A DNA stretch of 64,000 nt from Candidatus Obscuribacterales bacterium (GTDB lineage Bacteria > Cyanobacteriota > Vampirovibrionia > Obscuribacterales > Obscuribacteraceae), in the NCBI GenBank assembly GCA_046328035.1, contig JAXLXI010000003.1, positions 73,547 through 137,546 of the forward strand, in the 5' to 3' direction. The notes under the pieces were generated by a model. The model did not search any database and was not told where the DNA came from. It worked only from the letters and a program-made list of their open reading frames with translations. Both the position numbers and the translations under genes were made by a program. Positions 2 to 20,598 of the stretch are shown here, in pieces. Numbering within the stretch: the stretch's first letter is position 1; each line of letters begins with the position of its first letter.

Positions 2-3000
2 CTCGGAAAGCTCAATAGAAGGAAAGGAAACCTGCAGGCGGCGGAAAAGGCATACCGCACTCAGTTGGATTTGCTGATCAAGTCCAAAGCCACCGCCTCC
101 GAACTGGAAGATCCACTTAAGGAACTGGGCCGGGCACTGGTCGAGTTGGGACGTCTCGGAGAGGCAGAACCTTATTACAACCAGGCTTACGTGAGCATAG
201 CCAACAAAAGACAGGTGCGAAAGAACGTTTTTATTGATGTGGTCATAGAAACCCAGAGCGCAATGGCCACCAGCGTCTATAAAAGCAAGTTTGGCGGCAA
301 TGCCGACGATCTCGCTAAAACCATCGCAGACACCAAAGCCCGACTTGATCCTAATGGCGGTGTTAATTCACGTTCTCTGGCGTACGCTGATTTTTTGGAA
401 TCCGTTGGCTTTGCCTATCCAAACTTTCGCATCAAACGACAGCCCCTGATTCCGTTGCTTGAAGAAGCCATTCAGATCAGACTGCGTGTTGAAGGTCCCG
501 ATACGCCAAGAATTGCCGACGACAAATTCCAAATCGCCGTGCGTCTCGCCAATCTCGGAGGTGATTACACAGCTCCCGCTCTGGACGCATACAAGATTTG
601 GGTGAAATTGCGCGACAGACACGATGTGCGTCTCAAGTCATTTCAGCCTTCCATCCTGCGGCTTGCGTACCTGCTTGCCGGAAATGCCGAGACCAAGTCG
701 CAAGCGCTGGAAATGGCAACTTTAGCCCGCGCGAACCTTGCACCAGATTCGCCGAATGCCGGCCGCGAATGGGGCGGATTCGGACTTCTGTACGAGAATC
801 TAGGAGAATTCGGGCAGGCACGTACCGCTTATGAAAAAGCGAACCTCTGGTTTCAGGCTCACAACGATCCCACAGGCACCGCGCGCACCGCCATTGCTGA
901 TGCACGAATTTGTTATCTCGAACGCGACTACGATGTTGCTTGGCAAAAAGCAAAAGCCGCTGAAGCGATCTGTCAAAAGAACTGGGGAGTTACCCACTAT
1001 CAGGAAAACGTCGCCGGCATGATGTGCCTGGAGACACTGACGGCGATCGCCAGAGCCAGAGGAGATCTGGAAGCGGCCGAACTTTACGCGCGTATGCTGA
1101 CACTGAAAACCAAATGGCTGCAGCAAAACAGCGATATGGCACGCCACTATCTGGCGCTAGCTCAGGTGTTGAGCATGGGCAACGACAAAAGCGAAGCCAC
1201 CAGGTATGCTCAGGACGCAGTCTCAATTCTCTCGAACCTGAGAGAGAAGACCTCATACGATGAGATCGAGTTAGCTAAGGCGCACCTTCTATTGGGTGGT
1301 CTGGCGCTGGCGAAGCAAGATTATAAGCTCGCCGATGCAGAGTACAGACAGGCATTTATTCTCCACGGCACCGATAAGTCCACCGACGGAGTATTGGGAT
1401 TGGTGGCAGACTTGAATGGCATAGCTTTCACCGGCAGCAAGCTCGGCAAGAAACAAGCCGCCATTGAAAATGCGCTGCTCGCCTGCGACAAACTGGACAC
1501 CTACATCAAAACCGGGTTTCCAGAACTTTCCTTTGCTGAACAATGCGCGTTTATCAAATGTGTACGCGATGAGATCAATCCGCTGCTTTCGCTGGGCACT
1601 ACTGGCGATACTACTGCTGAACCATTCAAGTATGTCATGCGCTGGCAAGGTCTACTGATAGATGCGGTCAGGAGACAGACGAGTCTCGAGCGCAGCGGTG
1701 ATCCGCAGACCGTCGCGCAACTGCGGCAAATCAGGCAGGAGCTGTCGCAACTTTCTTCGGGCGCCGCCATGAATAATCAAGCTGCATCTACTGCGGCTGC
1801 GATCCAAACCAAGACCGAAGCGAAGGAGGCATTGGAACGTAAACTAGCTCTCAGCGCCACGGTCACCACTGCCACCACCGATCCGATGCTAACGCTGACT
1901 CCACGTGACTTTGTCAATTCACTGTCAAACGACGAAGCTCTGGTGGACGTACTGCGCTATAAAGACTTGCTCGCTAACAAACCTGCGTATTACGCTTTCG
2001 TAGTTTCGAAGAAAGCCGGTGTCAAAGGATTCCGTCTGGGAGATGCGGATGACATCGAAAAGCTGTCCGCCCAGTGGCTGCAGGCAATGGCATCCAATTC
2101 CGGCAGCACCCGTGACGTGTCGATCTTGGATGAAGATCCCAAATCAACTGAGCCGGCCAAAACTCAGATCGACCTGGATGCCGCTACCGGCACCGTCACA
2201 CAAAAACTGTGGACGCCGATAAAAGCTGCACTGCCTCCCGGCATACGCCGAGTGTGGATTTGCCCGGATTCCCAACTAGCCACTTTGCCGTGGTCCACCA
2301 TGGTGGATTCAGTGGAAAACGGACAGGTACTGACTAGCCAAATCGATAGCCCCAGGGCTTGGTGGCAGCTCAAAGCGCCACACCAGACTCCGGTCGCGCA
2401 AGACTTTCTGCTGATTGGCGGTATTCGGTTCGCCCAACAATCTCTGTTTCTTCCCGGCACCGAATCTGAAGTCGCCGACATTTCGAAACTTGCCGAGCCG
2501 GTGAAACTGCATCTGTCGAAACTGACCGGTGCTGAGCCGACAAAGAACGAAGTTTTGAGACAACTCGGGACGGCAACTTATGCGCACCTTGCTACTCACG
2601 GCTTTTTTGATCAAGGTGACGAAAAAACAATCAGTCAGCAGGCTGCACAAACTGTCGCAGATCAATTGTTGGCGTCGCAGAGAAGCTTCGTGACAGTCTC
2701 TACAGGAGAGGGCGCACTCAACACCACGGCTGTCATGTCCGCACGAAACCCGCTCGTAATGTCAGGCTTGCTCGTAGCACCAGCCCAGGGGTCCAATGTG
2801 AACGCCAACGATCGACTGACGGCCGAAGAACTGGTCGGCCAAGATCTCAGCCACTGTAACCTGGTTGTTCTATCCGCATGCAACACCGGTCGCGGCAAAG
2901 ATTACGAAGGGCAGGGTGTGATGGGGCTGCGCGCCGCACTGATCGGAGCCGGTGCACGCGGAGTGCTGATGTCTCTCTGGCCGGTTGATGATCGCGCAAC

Positions 3001-3169
3001 CAAAGAGTTGATGAAGAACTTCTACCAGAATCTTTGGAACCCAACCAATCCGATGCAACCCGTAGCCGCGTTGAGAGCCGCTCAGAACACCGTCAGGTCG
3101 GCTCCTGGTGGCAAATGGAAGCATCCCTATTATTGGGCAGGCTGGGTCTTCGACGGAGTTGGTTGGTGA
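2..3169 (+). CDS. TPR-repeat / CHAT-domain (caspase-fold) protein, 5'-partial. The reading frame is open to the window edge.
   Basis: ORF 65-3169 has no in-frame stop upstream to position 2. It has N-terminal TPR-like repeats. The C-terminal CHAT signature includes HLATHGFFD and LVVLSACNTGRGKDYEGQGVMGLRAA, which carries the His/Cys dyad context. Confidence 0.8.
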   Translation, partial: LGKLNRRKGNLQAAEKAYRTQLDLLIKSKATASELEDPLKELGRALVELGRLGEAEPYYNQAYVSIANKRQVRKNVFIDVVIETQSAMATSVYKSKFGGNADDLAKTIADTKARLDPNGGVNSRSLAYADFLESVGFAYPNFRIKRQPLIPLLEEAIQIRLRVEGPDTPRIADDKFQIAVRLANLGGDYTAPALDAYKIWVKLRDRHDVRLKSFQPSILRLAYLLAGNAETKSQALEMATLARANLAPDSPNAGREWGGFGLLYENLGEFGQARTAYEKANLWFQAHNDPTGTARTAIADARICYLERDYDVAWQKAKAAEAICQKNWGVTHYQENVAGMMCLETLTAIARARGDLEAAELYARMLTLKTKWLQQNSDMARHYLALAQVLSMGNDKSEATRYAQDAVSILSNLREKTSYDEIELAKAHLLLGGLALAKQDYKLADAEYRQAFILHGTDKSTDGVLGLVADLNGIAFTGSKLGKKQAAIENALLACDKLDTYIKTGFPELSFAEQCAFIKCVRDEINPLLSLGTTGDTTAEPFKYVMRWQGLLIDAVRRQTSLERSGDPQTVAQLRQIRQELSQLSSGAAMNNQAASTAAAIQTKTEAKEALERKLALSATVTTATTDPMLTLTPRDFVNSLSNDEALVDVLRYKDLLANKPAYYAFVVSKKAGVKGFRLGDADDIEKLSAQWLQAMASNSGSTRDVSILDEDPKSTEPAKTQIDLDAATGTVTQKLWTPIKAALPPGIRRVWICPDSQLATLPWSTMVDSVENGQVLTSQIDSPRAWWQLKAPHQTPVAQDFLLIGGIRFAQQSLFLPGTESEVADISKLAEPVKLHLSKLTGAEPTKNEVLRQLGTATYAHLATHGFFDQGDEKTISQQAAQTVADQLLASQRSFVTVSTGEGALNTTAVMSARNPLVMSGLLVAPAQGSNVNANDRLTAEELVGQDLSHCNLVVLSACNTGRGKDYEGQGVMGLRAALIGAGARGVLMSLWPVDDRATKELMKNFYQNLWNPTNPMQPVAALRAAQNTVRSAPGGKWKHPYYWAGWVFDGVGW

Positions 3170-3171
3170 CT

Positions 3172-6100
3172 ATGAAGAAACTGCTACTTCTCTTAGCGGC
3201 GGCACTATCCTGTGCCTGTCAGGTGGATGCCCAGGAATCCAGCAAGAAATTGCAGGACGCCGAAAAGTCCTGCCGAGCGCAAATCGAGCAGCTCACTAAA
3301 AATAAGGCGCCTGAGGCGCAGCTGGCGAAAGCCCTTCATGAGTTAGCGGGAATACTCGTTGAGGAGGGTCGCCCGGCAGAGGCAGAGCCCCTCTACAATC
3401 AGTACAGAGACAACGATGCACTAATTCGCAAAAACATTTTCATAGACATTGCTTTAGAAGCTCAGAACTCCGCCGCACGCGAAACTCACGAAAAAGCTTT
3501 TGGTATCGCACCCGATCTCAGCAAAGTAATGTCCGACAACGGCTCAAAAATGGATCCGAACTCGGTCCAGTACGCCCAGTTTCTGGACGATGTTGCAATT
3601 GCGTATCCATACTTCAAAAACAAGACGCAGCCGGTGATTCCAATCATTGTTCAGGCGATGCAGATCAGACAGAAGCTGGAAGGCAACGATAGCCCGTCCG
3701 TCGCTCAGGAAAAGTTTTTGATCGCACATCGACTGGCGGCGCTGGGTGGTGACTATGTTCCGCCCGCGCTGGAAGGGTATGCAATCTGGAAGAAGTTGAG
3801 CGATGCAAAAGATGCTCGCCTCAAGACACCAGCCGTTCAAGCATCGTTGGTGCGCCTGGCTTACCTCTTGTCCGGCGATGAGAGAACGCGGCAGAAGGGG
3901 GTAGAACTGGCAAATCTGGCTCTTGCCAATTTCAGCGCTCTTGCTCCCAACGGTGACTTATCCGTATCGCCTGTTAACGGTCGCGAAAAGTACGGATTGG
4001 GACTGTTGTTTGAAAATCTCGGAGACTATGCAAAGGCTGAAGCTACCTTCGCGGCGTCTCAAATTTGGTACGCAAACCACAACCAGCCGCAAGACAACAG
4101 AGTGCGAACACTGATTGCCCGAGCCAGAGTGTGTCGCCTGGAAGGTGACTATGATGTAGCTTGGTCGAGAGCCAGAGAAGCAGAAGATCTCTGCAAGAAA
4201 CTTTGGGGGCCGACCTATTATCAGGACAACATGCTCGGCATGAATTGCCTGGAGGTCCTCACGTCGGTCGCCCGATCCAAAGGCGATCTGGCAGCAGCAG
4301 AAAACTATGCGCGGCAGCTGTGTGGGAAATCGAACCTGCGATTGAGCAACAGTCAGGTAGCTAGTCATCAACTGGAACTAGCACAAGTTCTCAGCTTGTC
4401 GAACAACGCCGCTGAGGCGGCATCGGTCGCGCAAAAAGCGGTGACAATTCTCTCCAGCATCATCCAACCAACCTACACCGATCAGTCCGAACTAGCCAAA
4501 GCGCACTTGCTGCTTGCCGGGCTTGCCCTTTCCAAGCAAGACTACAAACTTGCGGACACCGAGTATAACCAGGCATTGAAACTGCATCTCAAAGACACGT
4601 CGAGCGCTGGTGTTCTTGGGCTGGTGGCGGACTACAATGGCATTGCATTCGCTAACAGCAAACTTGGTGCCCAAGCAGTTGCGAATAAAAATGTTTTGGC
4701 CGCCTGCGAGAAGCTGGACGAGTTTGTAAAGTCCGGGTTTCCGAAGCTCTCATTTGCAGGTCAGTGCGCGTTTATCAAGTGCGTAGGCGATCAGATCAAC
4801 GCGCTCCTATCATACGGCTCGGCAACTGAGTCAGCCGACAAGCGATTTGAATATGTTATGCGCTGGCAGGGTCTTTTGATCAACGCTGTCAGACAACATT
4901 CCAACCTGGAACGCAGCGGCGACCCGAACACCGTCGCCGCCCTCAGAAACATCAGGCAAGAGCTTTCAAAACTCTCCGCCGGTGGTGCCGGTCAACAATC
5001 CGATCTGATCGGCATTCAGACCCGGACAGAAATTAAAGAAATGCTCGAACGCAAACTCGCCCTCAAAAATACTGCGACCGGCGAGATCGATCCAACGCTC
5101 ACCAAAACAGCTCGCGAGTTCGCAAGCTCATTGAGCAGCGATGAAGTCGTAGTAGACATGCTCCGCTACAAAGATATGCTCACCAACAAGTCGGCATACT
5201 TCGTCTTTGCAGTTTCTAAGTCAGGTGGTGTCAAGGGATTTCGACTGGGTGATGCCGACGACATAGATAAGGTGTCAACCGATTGGCTTCACGCCATGGC
5301 TTCGAACTCTGGCACCGCCCGCGATGTCTCCATTACCGACGACGACGAGAAACCAAACTCGCCAAACGCTGCCAATGCACCCCGCGTCGATTGCACTGAG
5401 CTGGCAAATGCCGTCGGCAAGAAACTTTGGTTGCCCATCAAAGCAGCAATCCCGGCAAGCGCTCCAAAAGTGTGGATTTGCCCCGACTCAAAACTTGCGA
5501 CCCTGCCCTGGTCTGTTCTCATAGATAACAACGAAGGCGGCCGCATACGCACCTGTCAAATCGACAGTCCGCGCGCCCTGCTGCAATTGCGGGCACCTTA
5601 TAAAGCTCCTCAAGCAAAAGATCTCTTTGTGATCGGCGGCATCGAGTTTGCGCAAAAGGCACTTTTCCTTCCGGGTACAGAATCCGAAGCCAACGAAATC
5701 GCCGCGCTTGCAGAGCCAATGAAGCTTCATGTGTCGAAGTTGACTGGTCTTCAGCCGACCAAGGATGAGGTGCTCAAACACTTGAGCAGTTCCACTTATG
5801 CACACCTTGCCACGCACGGATTCTTCGATCCGGCAGACGACCGAGACAAAACGGTGCCCCTGGTGACATTGCCTGGCGACACAGTGAGGTTCTCCGGCAA
5901 AGATCAGGGCGGCATCGACACGAGAGCTGCAGCCGCCTCGCGCAATCCACTTGTCTTGTCCGGTCTTCTGGTGGCACCAATACCGGACGCACAAAAATTG
6001 GGCGGTGGCCAATTCAAATCCAACTACCTGAACATCATCGCGGGCAGCAACAACGATCGGCTTACCGCTGAGGAGTTGGTTGGCCAGGACTTGAGCCACT

Positions 6101-6414
6101 GCAATCTCGTTGTCTTGTCCGCCTGCAACACCGGTCGCGGCAAAGACTACGAAGGGCAGGGAGTGATGGGACTGCGCGCCGCATTAATCGGTGCCGGAAC
6201 GCGAGGAGTCTTGATGTCACTCTGGTCTGTCGATGACAAGGCCACAAAAGAATTGATGAAGGCGTTCTATCAAAATCTGTGGAATCCCACGAAACCGATG
6301 AAACCAGTCGACGCATTGAAGGCGGCGCAAGAGTCGGTGAAGTCAACCCCCGGTGGCAAGTGGAAGCATCCCTACTACTGGGCGGGTTGGGTCTACGACG
6401 GCGTGGGCTGGTAG
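3172..6414 (+). CDS. TPR-repeat / CHAT-domain protein with a Sec signal peptide. It is a tandem paralog of the upstream gene.
   Basis: The ATG at 3172 (M47 of the ORF) opens MKKLLLLLAAALSCACQVDAQ. The domain order is the same as gene 1 and the C-terminal roughly 120 aa are near-identical to it. Confidence 0.85.
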   Translation: MKKLLLLLAAALSCACQVDAQESSKKLQDAEKSCRAQIEQLTKNKAPEAQLAKALHELAGILVEEGRPAEAEPLYNQYRDNDALIRKNIFIDIALEAQNSAARETHEKAFGIAPDLSKVMSDNGSKMDPNSVQYAQFLDDVAIAYPYFKNKTQPVIPIIVQAMQIRQKLEGNDSPSVAQEKFLIAHRLAALGGDYVPPALEGYAIWKKLSDAKDARLKTPAVQASLVRLAYLLSGDERTRQKGVELANLALANFSALAPNGDLSVSPVNGREKYGLGLLFENLGDYAKAEATFAASQIWYANHNQPQDNRVRTLIARARVCRLEGDYDVAWSRAREAEDLCKKLWGPTYYQDNMLGMNCLEVLTSVARSKGDLAAAENYARQLCGKSNLRLSNSQVASHQLELAQVLSLSNNAAEAASVAQKAVTILSSIIQPTYTDQSELAKAHLLLAGLALSKQDYKLADTEYNQALKLHLKDTSSAGVLGLVADYNGIAFANSKLGAQAVANKNVLAACEKLDEFVKSGFPKLSFAGQCAFIKCVGDQINALLSYGSATESADKRFEYVMRWQGLLINAVRQHSNLERSGDPNTVAALRNIRQELSKLSAGGAGQQSDLIGIQTRTEIKEMLERKLALKNTATGEIDPTLTKTAREFASSLSSDEVVVDMLRYKDMLTNKSAYFVFAVSKSGGVKGFRLGDADDIDKVSTDWLHAMASNSGTARDVSITDDDEKPNSPNAANAPRVDCTELANAVGKKLWLPIKAAIPASAPKVWICPDSKLATLPWSVLIDNNEGGRIRTCQIDSPRALLQLRAPYKAPQAKDLFVIGGIEFAQKALFLPGTESEANEIAALAEPMKLHVSKLTGLQPTKDEVLKHLSSSTYAHLATHGFFDPADDRDKTVPLVTLPGDTVRFSGKDQGGIDTRAAAASRNPLVLSGLLVAPIPDAQKLGGGQFKSNYLNIIAGSNNDRLTAEELVGQDLSHCNLVVLSACNTGRGKDYEGQGVMGLRAALIGAGTRGVLMSLWSVDDKATKELMKAFYQNLWNPTKPMKPVDALKAAQESVKSTPGGKWKHPYYWAGWVYDGVGW

Positions 6415-7257
6415 TTAGCCGGAAATTCTGCGATGTCCAATAAAAACGTGCTTGCCCTGCAGGGACTCTACTAGTCCCATAAAATCGGCCAGTGTGGTTT
6501 GCGGATCTTGATCCGGATTGAGCGCGACCGCAAGTCCTGCGAGATCGCCGTAGGAGCTGTTTCCTTCCTGAGCTTTCTCAATGATCGCCGCCGCCACATG
6601 TCCCACGGACAAGAAACGAATCTCTTTGTCCTCAGGATCTCGATAAACAAGGACAATACTCGGCTCCGCCTTCACGTCTACCGGCAACTCATCCGACTCT
6701 TCTTCCAGCTTCTCGGCGATGGCGATGAGATCGAACTGATACCGCCGAATAAGCAGAGCCGGGTTGACCAGAGGTTTGAATCCCGCGAACTCCTCAGCCG
6801 ATTGCAGCAGGCACGTATCGGATTGATAATCGAATTCCGTATCATCGAAATCAATCATGTCGCTTTCGGAAAACTCGTAATCGACCAGGTCCGTCAAGTA
6901 AGGAAACTTTTCCTTCACCTGTTCGTTCAAATGTTTTTCGATGAATGTCTTGAAGTGTTCGCCGGCGCGACTGGATCTGTAGCTGGTCGGCGGGCAGATG
7001 TTGCGATAGTCTTCCACGATTTCGTCCCAGTCTTCTCCTAACAGTTTTTCCGTCAGAGGAAAAGTCATGCTCATCGTTTCGTAGTGTTTGACTTGCAAAA
7101 CTTGAACGTAGATCATCAGCCGTTCTTTATCGATTTGAGCGGCGATCTCGGGACCAATGTCCGAGAAGTCGCCTGCCAAGAATCGCTCCAATGCGTCGCG
7201 ATTGGTCCATAATTTGGTCATTGCCTTTTCGACTTCGGAGAGCGTGGTACCAGGCAT
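6415..7257 (-). CDS. DUF2063-like partner protein of the DUF692/MNIO enzyme (MbnC/BufC/HvfC-type)
   Basis: It lies 4 nt downstream of the DUF692 gene on the same strand. It is 280 aa with an N-terminal region compatible with DUF2063. The call rests mainly on the conserved gene pairing. Confidence 0.55.
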   Translation of the reverse strand: MPGTTLSEVEKAMTKLWTNRDALERFLAGDFSDIGPEIAAQIDKERLMIYVQVLQVKHYETMSMTFPLTEKLLGEDWDEIVEDYRNICPPTSYRSSRAGEHFKTFIEKHLNEQVKEKFPYLTDLVDYEFSESDMIDFDDTEFDYQSDTCLLQSAEEFAGFKPLVNPALLIRRYQFDLIAIAEKLEEESDELPVDVKAEPSIVLVYRDPEDKEIRFLSVGHVAAAIIEKAQEGNSSYGDLAGLAVALNPDQDPQTTLADFMGLVESLQGKHVFIGHRRISG

Positions 7258-7261
7258 AGTT

Positions 7262-8179
7262 TTATCCGCGTACCCGGTGTGACGTCTTCGCCTGATTCGC
7301 CTGAGACTTGCTGTCGAGCCAGCCTGGTTGTGCTGCTTTGACTACAGCTCGAATATCGTCCAGCTCTGCCAGTAACTCAGAAAACTCATCGGGAAAATGC
7401 TGATCGCGCTCGAGGAGAATCGCGTTGACTGGAACCCGTTCCATCACATACTTAAGCAGATCCAGAACCGGTCTTGGAGGTGTGGCACCATGCGTATCCA
7501 CATAGGCATCGAATTCGGGAGCATGGTGGTGACCGGCTATGTGAATTTGTACGGTGCGCTCAAGCGGAATCTGATCCATAAATTCGATAGGATCGAACTT
7601 GTGATTGAGCGAATTGACATACACATTGTTGATATCGAGCAGAAGCCCGCAATCGGCTTGCTCCAACACTTCAGAAAGAAACTGAGCTTCATCCAGCTCG
7701 CTGCCGGGCATACGCATGTAGTACGTGATGTTTTCGAGAAGAAACGGAATGTCCGTCATCTCCTGGACTTTCTTCGCGCGTGTCACGCAATGCGCAACGG
7801 CTTCGCGTGAGAACGGCAGCGGCAGCAACTCGTGCGTTTGCACGCCGCCAAAGGCGCTGAAACAAAGATGGTCGCTCCACCAAGGAGCATCGATATGCTT
7901 CAGGAGTTTCTTCAGAGACCGGATGTAGTCCTGGTCTATTTCGTCGGTGCTCCCGAGAGACAGTCCGACCCCGTGCGCGATTAGAGGGAACACCTTTAAA
8001 GCCCTGTCCAAGCGGGCTCGCGATTTTCCGCCCAGTCCCATGAATTGCTCGGAGATTATTTCCAGCCAGTCGATCTGCTCGGCGTGCTCGAAGGTTTCGT
8101 CTTCCACTTCGTTGCGCAGCCCCATGCCGACACCCAGTATCGGCAATTGCTTTTTCACATCGAGAAACTTAGACGTCAT
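7262..8179 (-). CDS. DUF692 / UPF0276 family TIM-barrel protein (MNIO, MbnB/BufB/HvfB-like)
   Basis: The N-terminal LGVGMGLR motif is typical of UPF0276. The protein is about 305 aa. The motifs HLCFS, IHIAGHHHAPEFD and DTHG provide His/Asp/Glu metal-ligand candidates. Its start overlaps the upstream stop as TAATG. Confidence 0.8.
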   Translation of the reverse strand: MTSKFLDVKKQLPILGVGMGLRNEVEDETFEHAEQIDWLEIISEQFMGLGGKSRARLDRALKVFPLIAHGVGLSLGSTDEIDQDYIRSLKKLLKHIDAPWWSDHLCFSAFGGVQTHELLPLPFSREAVAHCVTRAKKVQEMTDIPFLLENITYYMRMPGSELDEAQFLSEVLEQADCGLLLDINNVYVNSLNHKFDPIEFMDQIPLERTVQIHIAGHHHAPEFDAYVDTHGATPPRPVLDLLKYVMERVPVNAILLERDQHFPDEFSELLAELDDIRAVVKAAQPGWLDSKSQANQAKTSHRVRG

Positions 8180-9570
8180 TATTTAGCCTTGCGCTTGCTT
8201 ACGGGAAGTCCACAATCAGCGGGATTGGAATCACCGGCGTACGACCAGTCAGGTCGCACAAATTTTGTGTCGGCGCAATAAATTGCCATGCCGGCCATCG
8301 AGTCTTGCGGCTGCGCCGTCGGATTGACGTAAGTCGCTTCCAGCTCGTAATGCTTGCCCCCTATCAAAGGAATACCTTCGCTGGAACTCAGCGTGTCGAT
8401 GTGCAAAATCTGCAGCGGCTTTTCCTGCGTTCGCGCCTTGACCAAGATCACTTCTTTGCGCGCTTTACCGTTGCACTCGACCAGCGCAAATTTTTCACAA
8501 TAAGGATGCACGTGAGCCATGACCAGATGAACGCGTCTGTTCACCGCGGAGAAATCGGCATTGGCAGGCGATGTGATGGTGCTGACGGGACTTGTGTAAG
8601 TGTGAGTACCGGGTGGCACCACCCAGTGCCCGATTTGTTTGCGCCCCAGCTCATCACTGAAGATCATGCTTCGCATGCTGCTCGGTGCCGGCACGCCATC
8701 AGACATCAAAGAGCAGTCCGGGCACATGTTGTGTTCTTCCTGTGCCGCCTCCGGCGAATTGCGATCGATCACCACATTGATCACCGGGTAGTACCAGAAT
8801 AGAGCTTTGATTGGATAAACAAGTTCCGAATCGCGGACGAATGAAAGTATGCAGCGTTGTTTCACACGCCGGGGCTTGTCGCTGTCTCTATTGATTGCTT
8901 GAAAAATGAATCGCCAGGTCTCGTCGCTGGCCACCGGCAATCCATAGCCGCGAGGAAAGGTGAATTCGGTCTGCCCCTGCGAGAGGACGATGTGGCGCAT
9001 GCTTCCTGGTTGTTCGCTCTCAGGAAACACCTGGCTGCGGAAATCTAGATCGACATCAATGGTCGAGTGGCAGAAAAATTCGTCGGTAGGTAAAACCTGA
9101 TCGTTTTCGTCCAGGACTTCCAGCTTGATCGACTTCAGCCAGAGCAACTCTCTGCCTTTTGTGCGCGAGGCTTTCAGCCCGATCACACCTGCATCCGTTA
9201 CATCGGACTTCGCCCCTTTGGCACTGCCGGACATAGCAGGTGCCGGTTTTGAACAACCTTCAACGAATTGTACAAGGGCTTCTGGAATTTGAATCTGCTT
9301 CGACGCAATCAGATCGGCAATGCGCAGCGGCTCGCGCACATAGGGACCTTCCATGGATCGATATTTTTTGTGCAGGTCGAAAGGACCGATAGTAATTTCG
9401 ACGGTGCTCAGCGGTCCTTCCGTTTGCTGACTATCGCGTTGGACAGGCAGCGCTGTACTTACTAGAGAATCAAACCCTGCGCCCATTGCGGGCAACTTGA
9501 GCTGGTTGGCAAATAAACTACCAACCAGACACAACGTTGCTAGCACGGACGCAGGGCTAAATTTTCTCAT
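8179..9570 (-). CDS. Secreted 463-aa protein of unknown family, co-operonic with the MNIO genes
   Basis: The N-terminal signal peptide is MRKFSPASVLATLCLVGSLFA. It contains several Cys/His clusters, including HVHPYCEKFALVECNG and MCPDCS. I could assign no domain. It is translationally coupled to the DUF692 gene. Confidence 0.6.
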   Translation of the reverse strand: MRKFSPASVLATLCLVGSLFANQLKLPAMGAGFDSLVSTALPVQRDSQQTEGPLSTVEITIGPFDLHKKYRSMEGPYVREPLRIADLIASKQIQIPEALVQFVEGCSKPAPAMSGSAKGAKSDVTDAGVIGLKASRTKGRELLWLKSIKLEVLDENDQVLPTDEFFCHSTIDVDLDFRSQVFPESEQPGSMRHIVLSQGQTEFTFPRGYGLPVASDETWRFIFQAINRDSDKPRRVKQRCILSFVRDSELVYPIKALFWYYPVINVVIDRNSPEAAQEEHNMCPDCSLMSDGVPAPSSMRSMIFSDELGRKQIGHWVVPPGTHTYTSPVSTITSPANADFSAVNRRVHLVMAHVHPYCEKFALVECNGKARKEVILVKARTQEKPLQILHIDTLSSSEGIPLIGGKHYELEATYVNPTAQPQDSMAGMAIYCADTKFVRPDWSYAGDSNPADCGLPVSKRKAK

Positions 9571-9585
9571 TGAACCTGAGGCTGA

Positions 9586-9930
9586 CTACTTGGTTTCAGC
9601 TTCCTTTTTGGCATCTTCGGCCGGTTTGGATTCGCCGGCTTTGTCGGTCTTGCCATGCTTCTTGGCGTTGCCGTAGTGGCATCCGCACGGATATGTGCAA
9701 CCGCCGCCTCTGTTTTTGCCAGGACCTTTTTTCTTGCCGGCAGGCTTGGCTTCTTCTTTCTTGGTGTCGTCTTTCTTATCGGTGTCGGCCAGGTTGGTTC
9801 CCTTTTCAGCGATTGCCATTCCGGTCGATTTGGCTGCTACTGCCGGTTGACCTGAGCTGACCAGAACACCAGAGCTGACGCTGATCGCTGCGAGCAATAC
9901 CGTCAAATCGGTCTTGTTCAATTTTTCCAT
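9586..9930 (-). CDS. Putative RiPP precursor peptide. It is Sec-secreted, Lys/Glu-rich and carries a single CTYPCGCHYG core motif.
   Basis: The ATG at 9930 is preceded by GGAGG at a 5-nt spacing. The ORF-track start at 9942 is a TTG. The signal peptide is MEKLNKTDLTVLLAAISVSSGVLVSSGQPAVAA. The remainder has three Cys in a 7-residue window. It sits 15 nt upstream of the next gene. Confidence 0.65.
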   Translation of the reverse strand: MEKLNKTDLTVLLAAISVSSGVLVSSGQPAVAAKSTGMAIAEKGTNLADTDKKDDTKKEEAKPAGKKKGPGKNRGGGCTYPCGCHYGNAKKHGKTDKAGESKPAEDAKKEAETK

Positions 9931-10046
9931 TCTGTCCTCCAATTCCTATAACTCAGGGAAGGTTACTTCCCTTATGGCGGGCCAAAACAGATTATCGTCG
10001 GCAGATAACGATTTGCCCATATGTTTCTACAAAAAATTCCTTGGCT

Positions 10047-12164
10047 TTATCTAATGACAAGCCTGAGAGTCGTCGTGGTCCACTCGTCAAGCGAGTTGCT
10101 GTCTTCCTCGCTGACGCCCAGATCGCGGGTGTTGTGACCACCGACGCTGCGGCGGAAAAGTTCTTCCAGCGCCGTACCGGGACCGGACGGAGCAGCACGG
10201 CTGACGCCAGACTGTCCAAGTATGGTGAAATCAGCCGGCTTGGTTGTGACGATAAATTTGAGGGTCTCCACTCCCAGGGGCGGCTTGATGCTAAGCAAGC
10301 GCTTCTGTGCCGGCCACCGGAAAGTACCTTTAGGAGGCAGCGGATATTTGGCATTGTCCGGCGGATAGAGCACAGCGATGCTGCCGCTGGTCTCAATTGC
10401 CAAAATAGCGATGTAGATATTTTCGTCCGTGGTGTTGGTCAACTTGAGTCGCAACTTGTCCCCCACGTGCACGGTGGGCACAAGTTGATTTCCTGGAACG
10501 GGATCTTCTTTGAAGGTCGGCTCGCCCCATTCGTCTTTACCAAGTGGGGTAACTTTCAGCACTTCGATCTTCAGAGCGCCCTTGAGAGGCGAGACTTGAT
10601 TATCGAGAGCCAACACGCGCTGCTGTCGAGCTCCCTTTTCCAGAGCGCTGGCTATGGTGTCGGCAGCGTGTGGATCGTTTTCATCCACCCAGACATCAAA
10701 GAGCGGCGCACCATCCTTAGTGGCAATGAAGTAACCGTTGCCTTTGGCGTCACGAGTGCCGGCGGAACTTTTCTCCTGCTGGAAGTTATTGTATGTGTCC
10801 TTCACGACAGACATGTCCCAGCCGCCGGCGTCGCGTGTTTTGAACGGATCAGCGGTTTTGCTGGCAATTTTGACCAGTTTGGGGTCGACCGAATCAGTCA
10901 GGCCCTTGGTGAACTGCTGCCAGCTGGCTGAGTTCGTTTCTCCAGGAACGGCATTGAATGCTGTCACATTGAGCGGACCGGCGCCGAAGTGCGGCGTGAC
11001 GATTTTGGCTTTGGCCGACTTCAACGCTTCCTGATCAACGCCTGCCGGTCTTTCGATGGTGGCACTGAGTGCATTGCAATCTTTGGCGCTGGCGACACCC
11101 AACAAATCTTTGTTGCCGCGCAGCTGAGTTGCTTCCTTTTTATAGAACGCCACCAGCGTGCCTGGATCGATCCCCTGCAGAGAACCGGCGGCAATGGTGA
11201 TGCTCTTGTCGGTGACTTCCGAAACTGGAATGTACGGATCGGCTCGATCGGTTGCATCGCCGAATATGAAACGGTCGATGTCGCCTTCGATTTGCGGATG
11301 CTGATTGGAACGGTTGCCCGTCACTCCCGTTGCCACCGCTCCCCACAAGTCGCGATATGTAGTACCGGCGTTCGCCTGCTCAAGCGCATCAATCAAGTTT
11401 ATTGTCAGAAGTCCATTGGCACGGTCACCCTGCGGAGTATCGGTGTCGGACTCGCCGGCAGTCTCGTTGGGCAAGCATCCCGCCATTGACACATAAGTAG
11501 CCGGTGGAGCGCTTTTGGCGTCCTTTGGTTTTTGTGGAGGTTGCGGTCTGTCATCAGTCTCGGCCTTGCGCAGTCTCACACTCACGGTCGCGTCTCGAAC
11601 ATTGGAGCCGGAGTGGCAGCAATCAGTGATTATGGTGATGTTTTTCGTATATTGACCGAGCTGGTTGATCAGGTCTTCCAGATCGTCGTCGGTAAGGTCG
11701 TAGTGATCAGGCTGGCGAGAATCTACCGGCACGAGAGTTTCATCCATACCGTCCTCCTCATCGCCGTTCATGTCGGGCACCTGAGAGCCATGCCCGCTGT
11801 AATGAAACACACAGATGGCATTCGGATTTGCTTTGGCATTCTCAATCAATTGAGCCTTGAACGCATCAACGATGGCTTGTCTGGTTGCCTGGCGCGAGAG
11901 CAAGACTTTTATATGTTTGTCGTCATCAGGAAACCCGAAGCGTGTCGTGAGAAGCTTGCGCATGTCCTTCGCATCGTTTTCACAACCATCCAGCTTTTCC
12001 AGGCGTTTGGAGATGTAGTCATCAATGCCAATCAAAAGGGCAAACTTGTTTTGATTGCCCGGCTGCTGGGGAGCGTCAGCTGCGGCAGCCATACGAATCG
12101 GTCCGAGTACCGCCACCAGCATCACGCAAAGTGCCACCACTGGAGAGATCAGATGTCGTTTCAT
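10047..12164 (-). CDS. Secreted peptidase C14 (caspase/metacaspase-fold) domain protein with a roughly 450-aa C-terminal extension of unknown function
   Basis: It has a signal peptide. Caspase signatures present are FALLIGIDDY, HYSGHGSQ and DCCHSG. Confidence 0.8.
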   Translation of the reverse strand: MKRHLISPVVALCVMLVAVLGPIRMAAAADAPQQPGNQNKFALLIGIDDYISKRLEKLDGCENDAKDMRKLLTTRFGFPDDDKHIKVLLSRQATRQAIVDAFKAQLIENAKANPNAICVFHYSGHGSQVPDMNGDEEDGMDETLVPVDSRQPDHYDLTDDDLEDLINQLGQYTKNITIITDCCHSGSNVRDATVSVRLRKAETDDRPQPPQKPKDAKSAPPATYVSMAGCLPNETAGESDTDTPQGDRANGLLTINLIDALEQANAGTTYRDLWGAVATGVTGNRSNQHPQIEGDIDRFIFGDATDRADPYIPVSEVTDKSITIAAGSLQGIDPGTLVAFYKKEATQLRGNKDLLGVASAKDCNALSATIERPAGVDQEALKSAKAKIVTPHFGAGPLNVTAFNAVPGETNSASWQQFTKGLTDSVDPKLVKIASKTADPFKTRDAGGWDMSVVKDTYNNFQQEKSSAGTRDAKGNGYFIATKDGAPLFDVWVDENDPHAADTIASALEKGARQQRVLALDNQVSPLKGALKIEVLKVTPLGKDEWGEPTFKEDPVPGNQLVPTVHVGDKLRLKLTNTTDENIYIAILAIETSGSIAVLYPPDNAKYPLPPKGTFRWPAQKRLLSIKPPLGVETLKFIVTTKPADFTILGQSGVSRAAPSGPGTALEELFRRSVGGHNTRDLGVSEEDSNSLDEWTTTTLRLVIR

Positions 12165-12203
12165 AGCTCGATTCCTTCATCCTGTTGGATGGCGTTGACT
12201 GAC

Positions 12204-13136
12204 TTAGGGCGATGGGTCTGAGGGTTTTGCAAAAAGCACGGCATCGCTGCCGCTCCACCGGCTGTAGTTCACCGTGGGATGCTGTTCGTGCATGCGCAGC
12301 CTGGCTGCCATAATCACTTGCTGGCGTGTTTCCTCAAAAGCAGTCTTGAGTTTTCCGTCGTATTTGGCCAGGTTTTCCAAAAGATAGTGAGTGAAAAGCC
12401 CGCTCTCGTTAAAATCGTCATCTACAGATGTTTCATTGGCAGAGCAGGCGGTGACAGCAATCTGTCCGGCACCGATGACGTCGGTGGTCGCTGCGGCGTC
12501 TCTGGTTTTGACGTTGCCGGAAAAACAGGTATCAACGATGATGACGACTCGATCTGAGGGGAGCGATTGTTTGATCATGCGACCCAGCTCTTGCATGCTC
12601 AATCCCGTGCTCTTCGGATTTCGATCGTCGAAGTCGTAGGTGAGAATGTAATTTTCGCCGTTCTTGTCCGAGAATGACGTGCTGCCGTGGCTGGAGAAGT
12701 ACACGACCACCAGGTCGTCGGGGCGTACGACGTTTTTCAGCCAACCCGAGCCCAGGTAATAACGAATTTTTTCGCCAGTGGCTTGCGAGTTCAACAAGAC
12801 TTTCACGTGGCTGGGGGCAAATCCGGCTTTGTAAATCAGGAAATTGCGCACGTCGACGGCATCCTTGACGCTGAACGTGAGCGAGTCGGCGCGAGCCGGG
12901 AGAACCAGGCGAGGAGTAGTGGACGTGCCTTTCTCGATGTGAGCGCCGAGCAAATCGACTGTGGGAAACTCGCTAACTCCAATCAGCAATGCCCACTTAT
13001 CGGTGACCGGGCGATCGACAGAAGCGGCTGCCGGAGCGGCTGCCTCAGTTTTTTCCGACGCTGCGCGCACCGGTCCGAGGGTGGGCACGAGCAGTGCTGC
13101 CAGCAAAAGGTAGAAGCGCAATTTCGAAAACGACAT
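12204..13136 (-). CDS. Secreted caspase-like (peptidase C14 fold) protein
   Basis: WALLIGVSEF, YFSSHGS and VDTCFSG provide the His/Cys dyad context. The signal peptide is MSFSKLRFYLLLAALLVPTLG. The ATG at 13136 is preferred over the GTG at 13163. Confidence 0.7.
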   Translation of the reverse strand: MSFSKLRFYLLLAALLVPTLGPVRAASEKTEAAAPAAASVDRPVTDKWALLIGVSEFPTVDLLGAHIEKGTSTTPRLVLPARADSLTFSVKDAVDVRNFLIYKAGFAPSHVKVLLNSQATGEKIRYYLGSGWLKNVVRPDDLVVVYFSSHGSTSFSDKNGENYILTYDFDDRNPKSTGLSMQELGRMIKQSLPSDRVVIIVDTCFSGNVKTRDAAATTDVIGAGQIAVTACSANETSVDDDFNESGLFTHYLLENLAKYDGKLKTAFEETRQQVIMAARLRMHEQHPTVNYSRWSGSDAVLFAKPSDPSP

Positions 13137-13223
13137 AGTTGTATGCCTGGGTTGATCGTGCACATATTAAGACGAAATGCGAAAATGACGCGAGGTTGTG
13201 AACAATTTCTCGTCTGCCGGAGT

Positions 13224-14312
13224 ATGGAAAGACCGATGCTATCTAACAAATTCACTCGGTTCGGGAAAATTGTGCCGGCAGCATTGGCCCTGTTATTCAC
13301 CATAGCGACTTGCCAAGCGCAGGGATCTCAAGATGCCAAAACGGCAAGCACGCTGAAGCGAATGGCATTTTCCAGCGCCGACCAAAATTTGCCTGTGACT
13401 GCACTGCAGGGCAAATGGCGGGCGACCAGATCGATTGAATCGGAAGCGATTCAGAGAGCAAGAGAGAAGATCAATAAAGGAAACTGGGAAGCTGCCATCG
13501 TTGATTTGAACGAAGCGTTGAAAGCCGACCCCAAGAACGTCACCGCTTTGACCTGGCGCGGATTTGCTCGACTGAAACTAAACGAAACCAACTACGCGCT
13601 TGCTGACCTCAGCGAGGCGCTCAAGTACGACGATGAGAATGCCGATGCCTTGACATTTCGAGGCTGGACCAAAACCAGCATGGGTGATGCCGATGGAGGC
13701 ACTGAAGACTGCACCCACGCCATCAAGCTGCACCAGAATGCACAGGCGTTCTACATTCGCGGCAAAGGACACTCGATGTCCAACAATGCCATAGCAGCAG
13801 TGTTGGACGAAGACAAAGCTTTGAAGTTGGACCCGAACCTCGCCGATGCCTGGCAAATCAAAGGGCAGTGCCGGCTGACTCTGGGCGATGCAGCCGTGGC
13901 GATCAGTGACTTCAGCGAAGCAATTAAAAAAGATCCCAGCCCACGCTATTACCTGGACAGAGCACGAGCTTATTTGCTTTGCGATCAATTCGACAAGGCG
14001 TTGCCTGACCTGACCAAGGCAGCGGAAGGCATGCCGAATTCACCGGTGGCTTACATGTTTCGCGCGCTGGCTTATTTGGGACTGAAAAACGTTCCTAAAG
14101 CGCTGGAGGATGCACAGCATTCCGTCGAGCTTGCGCCCGATTCTCCAAGGGCACATCGCATTCTGGCTTATGCACTCGAAGATAGCGGTGATATCACCGG
14201 TGCCACCGCCGAATACGACAAGGCTTCCAAACTCTACTCGTCCGACGACGATCAAGAAGACATGCAGAGCTGCGTAAAACGTCTGAAGAGTGCCACCGCT
14301 GCGACGGAGTAG
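13224..14312 (+). CDS. Secreted TPR-repeat protein
   Basis: The signal peptide is MLSNKFTRFGKIVPAALALLFTIATCQA. It has multiple 34-aa TPR-like repeats, for example AxxDxxEALK. The long upstream ORF extension runs antisense to the caspase gene and was rejected. Confidence 0.7.
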   Translation: MERPMLSNKFTRFGKIVPAALALLFTIATCQAQGSQDAKTASTLKRMAFSSADQNLPVTALQGKWRATRSIESEAIQRAREKINKGNWEAAIVDLNEALKADPKNVTALTWRGFARLKLNETNYALADLSEALKYDDENADALTFRGWTKTSMGDADGGTEDCTHAIKLHQNAQAFYIRGKGHSMSNNAIAAVLDEDKALKLDPNLADAWQIKGQCRLTLGDAAVAISDFSEAIKKDPSPRYYLDRARAYLLCDQFDKALPDLTKAAEGMPNSPVAYMFRALAYLGLKNVPKALEDAQHSVELAPDSPRAHRILAYALEDSGDITGATAEYDKASKLYSSDDDQEDMQSCVKRLKSATAATE

Positions 14313-19360: not shown

Positions 19361-19371
19361 GACGTTGATGC

Positions 19372-20598
19372 ATGGATGAGCTGCTCGGCGCTCGATTAGA
19401 TAGGCGTGCATTTCTGAGAATCGCTGCGCTCGCCGGTACAGCAGCGTCTGGACTGGCCGGCTGTGTAGAACGCGCCGAGAAGTCGCTAATTCACGTGCCG
19501 GCGGGGCAAACTGTCGCGCGGTTTCCTGAGAAAGCGCAGTTGATCATGCTCACCGATCGGCCGCCGCAGTTGGAAACGCCGCTTTACTATTTCAAGGAAA
19601 TGCTGACACCAAACGATGCATTCTTTGTGCGGTGGCACTATGCGGGCATTCAAACCAGCATCGACCCAAAGAGTTTCACCTTGAGCGTCAACGGGCTGGT
19701 AGGAAACCCGATCTCGCTCGGGATGGAAGAGTTGCGCAAGCAGTTCGACCCAACAACGATCACCGCTGTCTGCCAGTGTTCCGGCAACTCTCGCAGCCGC
19801 ATGCTCCCACCAGTGCCCGGCGGGCAGTGGGGTGAGGGCGCCATGGGCAACGCACGCTGGACCGGAGTGCGGTTGAAGGATTTGCTGAAGAAAGCCGGCA
19901 TCAAATCTGGTGCGGTCGAAGTCGCATTTGCCGGCACTGACGAGGCACCACTTTCCAACATGCCGAAGTTTTGCAAGTCGCTTAAAGTCGACCACGCTTT
20001 ATCGGGCGAGGTGTTGGTCGCCTATGAAATGAACGGTGCACCGCTGCCGGTGCTCAATGGATTCCCGTTGCGCCTGGTGGTGCCTGGTTGGTATGCGACG
20101 TACTGGGTAAAGGCGCTGACCGAGATAACGGTCTTGCCGGAAACGCTGGATAGTTTCTGGATGAAAACCGCATATCGCATTCCGAACAATGCCACCGCCA
20201 ATGAATTGCCGAAGACACTGGCGACCGACACCGTCCCCATCAACAAGCTCAACCTGCGGTCGATATTCGTGGTACCTGAAATGAACGCCACAGTTTCCTC
20301 CGGCGAGCAAATCCAGTGTCAGGGAATTGCATTCGATGCCGGATCCGGCATAAAGCAGGTTGATGTATCCACCGACGGCGGCAATACATTTATGCCTGCA
20401 ACTCTGGTTGGACCAGACCTGGGCAACTACAGCTGGAGGCAGTGGCGTTTTGATTGGCGTCCGGACAGGGTCGGCAAGCACACACTCGCCGTCCGCGCCA
20501 CCAGCAACTCGGGCGCCGTGCAGACCAACATACCCCACTGGAATCGCAGTGGATACATGCGAAACGTAATCGAGAAAGTGGAGGTCAAAGTCGTTTGA
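19372..20598 (+). CDS. Sulfite-oxidase-family molybdopterin enzyme, SorA-like catalytic subunit with a Tat signal
   Basis: The twin-arginine motif is RRAFLRIAALAGTAASG. The Mo-Cys loop is CQCSGNSRSR. A C-terminal dimerisation-like domain is present. Confidence 0.7.
   Translation: MDELLGARLDRRAFLRIAALAGTAASGLAGCVERAEKSLIHVPAGQTVARFPEKAQLIMLTDRPPQLETPLYYFKEMLTPNDAFFVRWHYAGIQTSIDPKSFTLSVNGLVGNPISLGMEELRKQFDPTTITAVCQCSGNSRSRMLPPVPGGQWGEGAMGNARWTGVRLKDLLKKAGIKSGAVEVAFAGTDEAPLSNMPKFCKSLKVDHALSGEVLVAYEMNGAPLPVLNGFPLRLVVPGWYATYWVKALTEITVLPETLDSFWMKTAYRIPNNATANELPKTLATDTVPINKLNLRSIFVVPEMNATVSSGEQIQCQGIAFDAGSGIKQVDVSTDGGNTFMPATLVGPDLGNYSWRQWRFDWRPDRVGKHTLAVRATSNSGAVQTNIPHWNRSGYMRNVIEKVEVKVV

What the first reader, a model, noticed from the sequence alone, without database searches (positions are those of the whole stretch)
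8179..9570. Unclassifiable 463-aa secreted Cys/His-containing protein translationally coupled to the MNIO gene
Its stop TAA overlaps the ATG of the DUF692 gene (TAATG), implying co-translation and a fixed stoichiometry. It has a signal peptide and motifs such as HVHPYCEKFALVECNG, MCPDCS and ADCGLP. It resembles no enzyme family I know. It could be a new tailoring enzyme, an export or chaperone component, or the metal-handling partner of the modified peptide.
Basis: partly seen in the sequence, partly recalled or inferred. Interest (0 to 1): 0.6.

Follow-up and report, generated by a model that had tools for sequence, protein, structure and literature searches.

The report
PHM-like copper protein in RiPP operon
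The gene encodes a secreted protein whose predicted fold and three key metal-binding residues match the copper enzymes that amidate animal peptide hormones, and in a few Melainabacteria it sits in an operon that makes a cysteine-modified, probably copper-binding, peptide.

The parts
9991..10019 (-). Sigma-70-like promoter candidate (TGGGCA-17-GATAAT) upstream of the precursor gene
   Evidence: Consensus scan, 9 of 12 matches. Weak evidence only. It lies in the 116-nt gap after the upstream caspase-like gene.
9586..9930 (-). Precursor peptide gene: 114 aa from the ATG at 9930 (the ORF list starts it at TTG 9942). It has a Sec-type leader, a Lys/Glu-rich linker, a Cys-rich core and a tail.
   Evidence: GGAGG lies 8 nt before the ATG. 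Homologues start at the equivalent Met. The leader MExxxKxDLTxLLxAxS and the core are conserved in 4 aligned sequences and in 9 database clusters.
9670..9699 (-). Core CTYPCGCHYG of the precursor. YPCGCHYG is invariant in all relatives.
8179..9570 (-). The finding: a 463-aa secreted PHM/DBH-like two-domain protein
9499..9570 (-). N-terminal signal-peptide-like segment (residues 1 to about 24), followed by a disordered linker to residue ~46
   Evidence: Sequence inspection. AF2 shows helix 6-19 with low pLDDT and pLDDT <50 for residues 23-46. Relatives also have hydrophobic N-termini.
9343..9357 (-). Invariant S72-M73-E-G75-P76 motif in the N-terminal strand region
   Evidence: S, M, G and P each in 84/85 sequences (the one other a gap) and E74 in 73/85. 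Role unknown.
9067..9072 (-). Invariant C167-H168 pair, a candidate replacement for PHM's CuH ligands H107-H108
   Evidence: 86/86 conserved. One hhalign alternative pairs it with PHM 107-108 (hit 2); the top alignment pairs C167 with PHM C81 instead. The mapping is unresolved.
8608..8628 (-). H315-W-V-V-P-P-G321. The VPPG part aligns with PHM's IPPG at the start of domain 2. H315 is invariant and has no His counterpart in PHM.
8503..8514 (-). H353-V-H355-P356, aligned to PHM CuM ligands H242 and H244
   Evidence: hhalign. 84/86 conserved, the remainder gaps.
8296..8304 (-). D423-S-M425, aligned to PHM D312-E-M314 (the CuM methionine). The HxH-to-Met spacing is 70 residues in both proteins.
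   Evidence: hhalign. Conservation.
8177..8181 (-). TAATG stop/start overlap between this gene and the MNIO gene
   Evidence: The same overlap is in L010. A TGATG overlap occurs in the reversed gene order of L001, L006 and L011.
7262..8179 (-). MNIO (DUF692) enzyme, 305 aa, closest to the Cys-modifying BufB/HvfB types
   Evidence: PF05114 1e-91. NCBIfam BufB 271 bits (cut-off 310) and HvfB 260 bits (cut-off 360).
6415..7257 (-). DUF2063/HvfC-type partner protein, 280 aa
   Evidence: PF09836 3.9e-9, PF22106 1.8e-7. NCBIfam HvfC 1.4e-18, below its cut-off.

Best explanation
The gene encodes an exported two-domain beta-sandwich protein of the PHM/DBH (copper type II monooxygenase) fold. It keeps the O2-activating CuM-type site (H353, H355, M425). 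It has lost PHM's CuH histidine triad and its glycine-carboxylate binding residues. It carries other invariant residues instead: C167-H168, H315, M73 and C286. It belongs to a clade of a large unnamed bacterial family that has specialised on one substrate, the small secreted peptide encoded just upstream (core YPCGCHYG). Proposed sequence of events: (1) In the cytoplasm, the MNIO enzyme and its DUF2063 partner recognise the conserved leader/signal peptide and oxidise the core cysteines, by analogy with bufferins and oxazolins, to 5-thiooxazole or oxazolone-thioamide. (2) The peptide is exported by Sec. (3) In the periplasm, the PHM-like protein uses copper and O2 to oxidise the peptide further. 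The likeliest reaction is C-H hydroxylation at an invariant Gly (PHM-like, which could end in cleavage to a C-terminal amide) or at the benzylic carbon of an invariant Tyr (DBH-like). SHOWN: the fold match, the conserved residues, the clade-restricted and order-independent linkage to the peptide and MNIO genes, and the export signal. INFERRED: copper binding, catalysis, the peptide as substrate, and the reaction type.
Against: No sequence method reaches significance. Pfam Cu2_monooxygen models do not hit. A PHM HMM against 341 family members gives nothing. hhalign probabilities are only 1-5%. PHM's third CuH ligand H172 aligns to I/A/L, so it is absent. The HH pair is at best Cys-His, so electron delivery cannot work as in PHM, and ascorbate is not an expected bacterial periplasmic reductant. 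I could not read model coordinates, so the geometry of the putative sites is untested. Three peptide loci (L090/L091, L092) have MNIO-DUF2063 and two tandem precursors but no PHM-like gene. The protein is therefore not obligatory in cis for every such peptide. Most of the family has no peptide or MNIO neighbour, so the ancestral function does not depend on this RiPP. No experiment exists for any member.
Confidence: 0.5

Rival explanations
1. Copper hand-off. The PHM-like protein is a periplasmic cuproenzyme, or a copper acceptor, with some other substrate. The MNIO-modified peptide is its dedicated copper chaperone or chalkophore, in the way methanobactin supplies copper to methanotrophs. The peptide is a partner, not a substrate.
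For: Most family members work without any peptide or MNIO neighbour and keep the same invariant residues. The catalytic function therefore does not need this peptide. Some peptide loci lack the protein. The clade has gained His and Met residues (H193, M191, M299, M302), typical of Cu(I) transfer surfaces. A copper storage protein (Csp) gene lies 2.5 kb from a paralogue in L003. A CusA/CzcA-type pump lies upstream in L006.
Against: Each Obscuribacterales genome has several paralogues, yet only the clade member is peptide-linked. If the peptide merely delivered copper, all paralogues would need it. The cyclophilin fusions point to peptide or protein substrates for the family. No uptake or export genes of the methanobactin type (TonB receptor, MATE exporter) were seen in the operon.
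Confidence: 0.25
2. Non-catalytic periplasmic binder. The double beta-sandwich only sequesters copper, or binds and holds the mature peptide as a storage or presentation protein, without redox chemistry.
Against: About 20 invariant polar and aromatic residues are held across more than 8 phyla. These include a His-x-His...Met triad identical in spacing to a known O2-activating site. This is more typical of an enzyme than of a binder.
Confidence: 0.12
3. Hydrolase. The protein is a PNGase F-like amidase or a novel Cys/His peptidase that trims the leader-less precursor's Lys-rich linker or tail in the periplasm.
Confidence: 0.08
4. Passenger gene. It is an unrelated secreted protein that happens to sit in the operon in this lineage.
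For: The family at large is unlinked to MNIO.
Against: The linkage survives a rearrangement of gene order and a fusion of MNIO with DUF2063. The junctions are overlapping in both orders. The linked proteins form an exclusive clade.
Confidence: 0.05

Closest known systems
Peptidylglycine alpha-hydroxylating monooxygenase (PHM domain of PAM; PDB 1PHM, 1SDW)
   Different: About 8-10% identity, and no Pfam PF01082/PF03712 hit. CuH ligand H172 is absent, and HH is replaced, at best, by Cys-His. Substrate residues R240, N316 and Y318 are not kept. There are extra N-terminal strands with an invariant SMEGP motif, a ~55-residue insertion (261-314) and an invariant H315. It is bacterial and has no PAL lyase partner.
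Dopamine beta-hydroxylase / tyramine beta-monooxygenase (PDB 4ZEL)
   Different: No DOMON or dimerisation domains. CuH site not conserved. No sequence-level homology detectable.
Bufferin (BufABC) and oxazolin (HvfABC) MNIO gene clusters
   Same: The layout has a signal-peptide-bearing Cys-containing precursor, an MNIO and a DUF2063 partner. The MNIO scores best against the BufB and HvfB models. The products of those systems bind copper (PMC11626156, PMC11252979).
   Different: The precursor is a new type (YPCGCHYG core, not DUF2282/Buf1, Buf2, EGKCG or CxxxxC). MNIO scores fall below both equivalog cut-offs. No DoxX gene was seen in the operon. No PHM-like protein is described among MNIO cluster components in the 2025 landscape survey (PMC12452194).
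Methanobactin operon accessory proteins (MbnH/MbnP, MbnF, MbnN)
   Same: Accessory periplasmic or tailoring proteins are encoded with an MNIO (MbnB) and a copper-binding RiPP. This is an analogy for both the 'tailoring' and the 'copper handling' readings (from general knowledge).
   Different: No sequence or fold relationship. The MNIO here is far from MbnB (42 bits against a cut-off of 325).
BURP-domain peptide cyclases (plant copper-dependent RiPP enzymes)
   Same: Copper-dependent oxidative modification of Tyr-containing ribosomal peptides (PMC12186524, abstract seen). This is the only functional analogy for copper enzymes in RiPP tailoring.
   Different: Unrelated fold and lineage; not tested here.
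PNGase F family (PDB 1PGS, 3KS7)
   Different: Lower structural scores than PHM. It is a metal-free amidase with acidic catalytic residues, and the HxH...M triad has no counterpart in it (from general knowledge; catalytic residues not aligned here).

Membership tests
Copper type II ascorbate-dependent monooxygenases (PHM/DBH/TBM; Pfam PF01082 + PF03712) | Two tandem beta-sandwich domains with the PHM topology | tested here: met
Copper type II ascorbate-dependent monooxygenases (PHM/DBH/TBM; Pfam PF01082 + PF03712) | Sequence match to the family's profile models | tested here: not met
   No Pfam hit for the protein at E<=1. No PF01082 or PF03712 hit for any of 41 relatives at E<=10. A PHM-family HMM against 341 family sequences gives a best E of 0.5. 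hhalign probability is 1-5%.
Copper type II ascorbate-dependent monooxygenases (PHM/DBH/TBM; Pfam PF01082 + PF03712) | CuM site: His-x-His plus Met about 70 residues later (H242, H244, M314) | tested here: met
   H353, H355 and M425 align to these positions in three hhalign runs. The residues are invariant apart from gaps. The 3-D geometry could not be checked.
Copper type II ascorbate-dependent monooxygenases (PHM/DBH/TBM; Pfam PF01082 + PF03712) | CuH site: His-His pair plus a third His (H107, H108, H172) | tested here: not met
   The H172 position aligns to I226, which is A/L/I in the family. The HH pair is either absent or replaced by C167-H168 (second alignment).
Copper type II ascorbate-dependent monooxygenases (PHM/DBH/TBM; Pfam PF01082 + PF03712) | PHM-specific binding of the peptidyl-glycine carboxylate (R240, with N316 and Y318) | tested here: not met
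   In the hhalign register, R240 corresponds to M351 (W/A in relatives), N316 to G427 and Y318 to A429; none is conserved. R240's role is taken from PMC12164859.
Copper type II ascorbate-dependent monooxygenases (PHM/DBH/TBM; Pfam PF01082 + PF03712) | Binds two coppers and hydroxylates a C-H bond with O2 and a reductant | not testable with these tools
   Needs metal analysis and an activity assay.
MNIO RiPP biosynthetic gene cluster (bufferin/oxazolin type) | An MNIO (PF05114) gene with a DUF2063/HvfC-type partner | tested here: met
   PF05114 1e-91, PF09836 and PF22106. The same pair, or a fusion of the two, occurs in L001, L006, L010, L011, L093 and L094.
MNIO RiPP biosynthetic gene cluster (bufferin/oxazolin type) | A precursor with a Sec signal peptide and a conserved Cys motif next to the MNIO gene | tested here: met
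   Window 9586..9930 has a conserved leader and an invariant YPCGCHYG core. The signal peptide was judged by inspection only.
MNIO RiPP biosynthetic gene cluster (bufferin/oxazolin type) | The MNIO reaches the BufB or HvfB equivalog score, and the precursor belongs to Buf1, Buf2, EGKCG or CxxxxC | tested here: not met
   BufB 271 bits against 310; HvfB 260 bits against 360. The precursor has no Pfam or NCBIfam hit, and its motif differs from the groups described in PMC12452194.
MNIO RiPP biosynthetic gene cluster (bufferin/oxazolin type) | The 463-aa protein is a recurrent component of such clusters | tested here: inconclusive
   It is recurrent only within one clade (8 loci). It is absent from 3 related peptide loci. 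Conversely, about 70 of the family's own loci have no MNIO gene nearby. No such component is reported in the literature searched.
PNGase F-like amidases | Double jelly-roll fold with acidic catalytic residues and no metal | tested here: inconclusive

The most novel reading that the evidence does not exclude
A large, unnamed bacterial family of exported PHM/DBH-type copper oxygenases exists. Its classical His3 electron-transfer site is replaced by a Cys-His-based site. One clade is the first PHM-type enzyme dedicated to a bacterial RiPP. It acts in the periplasm on a thiooxazole-bearing peptide after Sec export, for example by alpha-hydroxylating the invariant Gly to give a C-terminal amide or by beta-hydroxylating Tyr. 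The copper-binding substrate itself may possibly serve as copper or electron donor.
Probability: 0.3. Interest if true: 0.8.

Novelty: new variant of a known kind. Interest (0 to 1): 0.62.

Why it matters
PHM and DBH are textbook animal neuropeptide and catecholamine enzymes. No bacterial relative was found in the literature searched here, and none has been linked to ribosomal peptide natural products. If the reading is right, three things follow. First, a family of at least 864 sequence clusters that no Pfam or NCBIfam model covers gets a fold, a candidate active site and a testable function. Second, MNIO peptide pathways gain a post-export, copper-dependent tailoring step, a new logic for RiPP maturation. 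Third, a natural variant of the PHM scaffold with a Cys-His site in place of CuH would bear on the long-running question of how electrons cross the 11-Å gap between the two coppers. The operon is small (four genes, about 3.5 kb). This makes heterologous reconstitution straightforward.

Tried and rejected
1. Sequence classification failed. Pfam and NCBIfam gave nothing on the protein, and Pfam gave nothing relevant on 41 relatives at E<=10. phmmer and a family profile against PDB sequences gave only a spurious 0.12 hit to IPP isomerase.

2. A PHM-family HMM against 341 family members found nothing significant. The PHM link rests on fold plus weak profile-profile alignment.

3. The afdb50 Foldseek library was unavailable.

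4. Model coordinates are not exposed to the script environment. Distances between candidate ligands could not be measured, and the C167-H168 mapping stays ambiguous. hhalign gives two competing registers: C167 on PHM C81, or C167/H168 on H107/H108.

5. I looked for a conserved small peptide or any conserved neighbour next to the non-MNIO paralogues. No YPCGCHYG-like core occurs outside the clade, and no neighbour family is shared across the whole family.

6. L031 has MNIO and DUF2063 genes 7 kb from a 45%-identical paralogue. They are on the opposite strand behind unrelated genes, so I judged this a separate cluster rather than linkage.

7. The idea that dibasic sites directly follow the invariant Gly, as in animal amidation signals (Gly-Lys-Arg), does not hold cleanly. 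The residues after CHYG vary (GKS, NAKK, VNSKK, AQDR). C-terminal amidation is therefore only one of several possible reactions.

8. Literature searches for a described PHM-like protein in bacteria or in MNIO clusters found none.
Full report
OBSERVATION. The ORF at 8179..9570 lies on the minus strand (ATG start, 463 aa). On that strand the junction reads AAATAATGAC. The TAA stop and the ATG of the next gene share base 8179.

The next gene (7262..8179) is an MNIO enzyme: Pfam PF05114 at 1e-91. In NCBIfam it scores best against BufB (271 bits) and HvfB (260 bits), both below the equivalog cut-offs. It is followed 4 nt later by a DUF2063/HvfC-type partner (6415..7257).

Fifteen nt upstream of the target gene ends a small ORF (9586..9930 from an ATG preceded by GGAGG). 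It encodes a secreted-looking, Lys-rich peptide containing CTYPCGCHYG. A weak promoter-like site lies just upstream of it.

The operon is therefore peptide, then the target, then MNIO, then DUF2063.

The N-terminus has the n-, h- and c-region layout of a Sec signal peptide (inspection only).

THE PROTEIN BY SEQUENCE. Pfam, NCBIfam and PDB sequence searches are empty. The protein is not an orphan, though.
- 236 homologues were found at E<=1e-3.
- A profile search of 1.84 billion cluster representatives found 864 clusters at E<=1e-3 and 305 at E<=1e-30.
- A scan of one genome per species confirmed 135 relatives. The best 80 loci come from Obscuribacterales/Melainabacteria (several paralogues per genome), Xenobia/Vulcanimicrobiota, Thermoanaerobaculia, Gemmatimonadota, Polyangia, Elusimicrobia, Nitrospinota and others.
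- The closest genome hit is a Candidatus Obscuribacteraceae MAG at 92% identity with the same gene order (L010).
- Roughly two thirds of the 120 listed homologues carry a C-terminal cyclophilin domain, and one carries ankyrin repeats.

Across 85-86 distinct sequences the invariant residues are S72, M73, G75, P76, W144, C167, H168, R192, G199, P206, P212, Q224, N227, A295, H315, G321, H353, H355, P356, Y414, N416 and M425 (some with one to three gapped sequences). C286 is kept in 81/86.

THE PROTEIN BY STRUCTURE. An AlphaFold2 model built on 41 relatives is confident (pLDDT 85, pTM 0.82). It is all-beta with two domains, plus disordered segments at 23-46 and about 100-135.
- Foldseek independently returns PHM or DBH as all of its top 26 hits, with E down to 1.6e-7 and probability 1.0.

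I checked my recalled PHM sequence against PDB chains; it is identical over residues 66-356. I then built a 21-sequence PHM-family profile from database proteins that carry PF01082 and PF03712.

Profile-profile alignment with a 54-sequence profile of the target family is weak: E 0.0096, probability 4%. It nevertheless lines up VPPG with IPPG, H353 and H355 with H242 and H244, and D423-S-M425 with D312-E-M314. These are the three CuM ligands (ligand identities from PMC12164859). The HxH-to-Met spacing is 70 residues in both proteins.

A more permissive run extends the alignment into the N-domain:
- FPRGYGLPV aligns with LPKGVGFRV.
- Invariant Q224 aligns with Q170.
- The third CuH ligand H172 falls on I226 (A/L/I in the family) and is therefore absent.

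The His-His pair is unresolved. The top alignment puts C167 on PHM C81. The second puts C167-H168 on positions 107-108. Counting strands in order favours the second, but this is inference.

The residues that hold the glycine carboxylate in PHM (R240, N316, Y318) are not conserved. HMM-to-sequence searches do not detect the relationship at all.

In summary, the protein has a PHM/DBH-type fold with a CuM-type triad, a different second site, and a different substrate pocket. It does not belong to the Pfam-defined family.

GENOMIC LINKAGE. In 89 loci I searched every ORF with the window's MNIO, DUF2063, peptide and target proteins.
- MNIO, DUF2063 and the peptide are adjacent only in L010 (same order as the window) and in L001/L002, L006 and L011. 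In that second group the order is peptide, then a fused MNIO-DUF2063, then the target, with a TGATG overlap.
- L093 and L094, found through other searches, repeat the window's order with 66- and 110-nt gaps.
- L009 has the peptide and the target adjacent and no MNIO gene next to them.
- The remaining ~70 loci, all at 50% identity or less, have neither. L031 has an MNIO pair 7 kb away on the other strand, which I regard as separate.

In a neighbour-joining tree the seven peptide-linked proteins form an exclusive clade. L094 was found after the tree was built and is not in it. The peptide core motif occurs nowhere else in the loci.

The peptide family itself is tiny: 9 clusters in 5.8 billion sequences. 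It has an invariant YPCGCHYG and a strongly conserved leader.

Three loci for its most divergent members (L090/L091, L092) carry two tandem precursors, the second with a CIDCTCGCG or CADCCGCKY core. They also carry a fused MNIO-DUF2063 but no PHM-like gene. One of these comes from the same metagenome as L001.

The protein is therefore an accessory module of this peptide system, recruited once from a much larger family.

MECHANISM. What is shown:
- an export signal;
- a PHM-like fold;
- a conserved His2Met triad, plus C167/H168/H315;
- clade-specific, order-independent linkage to a secreted Cys-rich precursor and to a BufB/HvfB-like MNIO.

From published work on bufferins and oxazolins (PMC11626156, PMC11252979, PMC12452194), such MNIO and DUF2063 pairs oxidise cysteines of signal-peptide-bearing precursors. 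The resulting heterocycles bind copper, and the products act in the periplasm.

The most economical inference is that the PHM-like protein meets the modified peptide after export and oxidises it with copper and O2. By analogy with PHM and DBH chemistry, the invariant Gly and Tyr residues of the core are the obvious C-H targets. The family's frequent cyclophilin fusions and the invariant Pro in the core fit peptide substrates.

I put this at about 0.5. The main rival (0.25) is that the peptide delivers copper to the protein rather than being modified by it. Three observations favour that rival:
- the rest of the family works independently of the peptide;
- the clade has gained H193, M191, M299 and M302;
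- the neighbourhood has a metal theme: a CusA/CzcA-type pump in L006 and a Csp gene near a paralogue in L003.

A non-catalytic binder, a hydrolase and a passenger gene are less likely, for the reasons given under the rivals.

The two overlapping genes encode proteins destined for different compartments, and the overlap is replaced by a gap in L093 and L094.

NOVELTY. None of the papers found describes this family, a PHM-like component of MNIO clusters, or this precursor type. The fold and the metal site are of a known kind. The altered second site, the bacterial periplasmic setting and the RiPP linkage are new. I rate it a new variant of a known kind.

Noticed in passing
window 10047..14312 (also L093 4296..8021 and L094 8323..11371): A block of one TPR protein and two secreted caspase-like (Peptidase_C14) proteins, one with DUF4384, flanks the operon. 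In the window it lies upstream of the peptide gene. In L093 and L094 the same block lies downstream of DUF2063. C14 genes also lie within 4 kb of 9 other paralogue loci. Bacterial orthocaspases cleave after Arg or Lys (general knowledge), and the precursor core is flanked by basic residues. They could be the trimming proteases.
   Followed up: partly
L090 6552..6896 and L092 6592..6924: Related loci that lack the PHM-like gene encode two tandem precursors with the same leader but different cores: CIDCTCGCG or CADCCGCKY, followed by CYPCGCHYG. They sit ahead of a fused MNIO-DUF2063 gene.
   Followed up: partly
Homologues P0012-P0113; e.g. L003 6001..7914: Most family members outside the peptide-linked clade carry a C-terminal cyclophilin-type prolyl isomerase domain. 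One (P0031) carries ankyrin repeats instead. Several genomes hold 4-5 paralogues, some in tandem (L023, L026, L088).
   Followed up: partly
L003 3123..3515: A copper storage protein gene (Pfam Csp, PF03860) lies 2.5 kb upstream of a cyclophilin-fused paralogue, next to an MgtC-like gene.
   Followed up: no
L006 1..2594 (also L001, L002, L011): In L006 a CusA/CzcA-family heavy-metal RND pump (TIGR00914, 582 bits on the C-terminal fragment) and an OmpR-type response regulator precede the peptide/MNIO/PHM-like cluster. A fasciclin-domain gene lies between them. L001 and L002 show the same ACR_tran, regulator and fasciclin layout; for L011 only the regulator was seen.
   Followed up: partly
window 65..6414: Two consecutive giant TPR-CHAT domain proteins (1034 and 1126 aa). 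The second converges on the DUF2063 gene with no intergenic gap (stop at 6414, DUF2063 stop at 6415).
   Followed up: no
window 17744..20598: A metallo-beta-lactamase/rhodanese fusion (persulfide-dioxygenase-like) is followed by a sulfite-oxidase-type molybdoenzyme (Oxidored_molyb plus Mo-co_dimer). This is a possible sulfur-oxidation pair.
   Followed up: no
window 20984..23620: A single 878-aa ORF combines COX1 (CcoN-like), FixO and two cytochrome c (CcoP-like) domains. It is an apparently fused cbb3-type oxidase.
   Followed up: no
window 8992..8994, 8998..9000, 8674..8676, 8665..8667 (residues H193, M191, M299, M302): The peptide-linked clade has His or Met at four positions where the rest of the family has aliphatic or small residues. 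It also has T170 where others have Asn and V195 where others have Thr. These could mark the peptide- or copper-docking surface.
   Followed up: no
L070/L071 (Gemmatimonas contig JAJKIV010000224.1): Two copies of a distant family member lie in inverted orientation about 5.5 kb apart on one contig.
   Followed up: no
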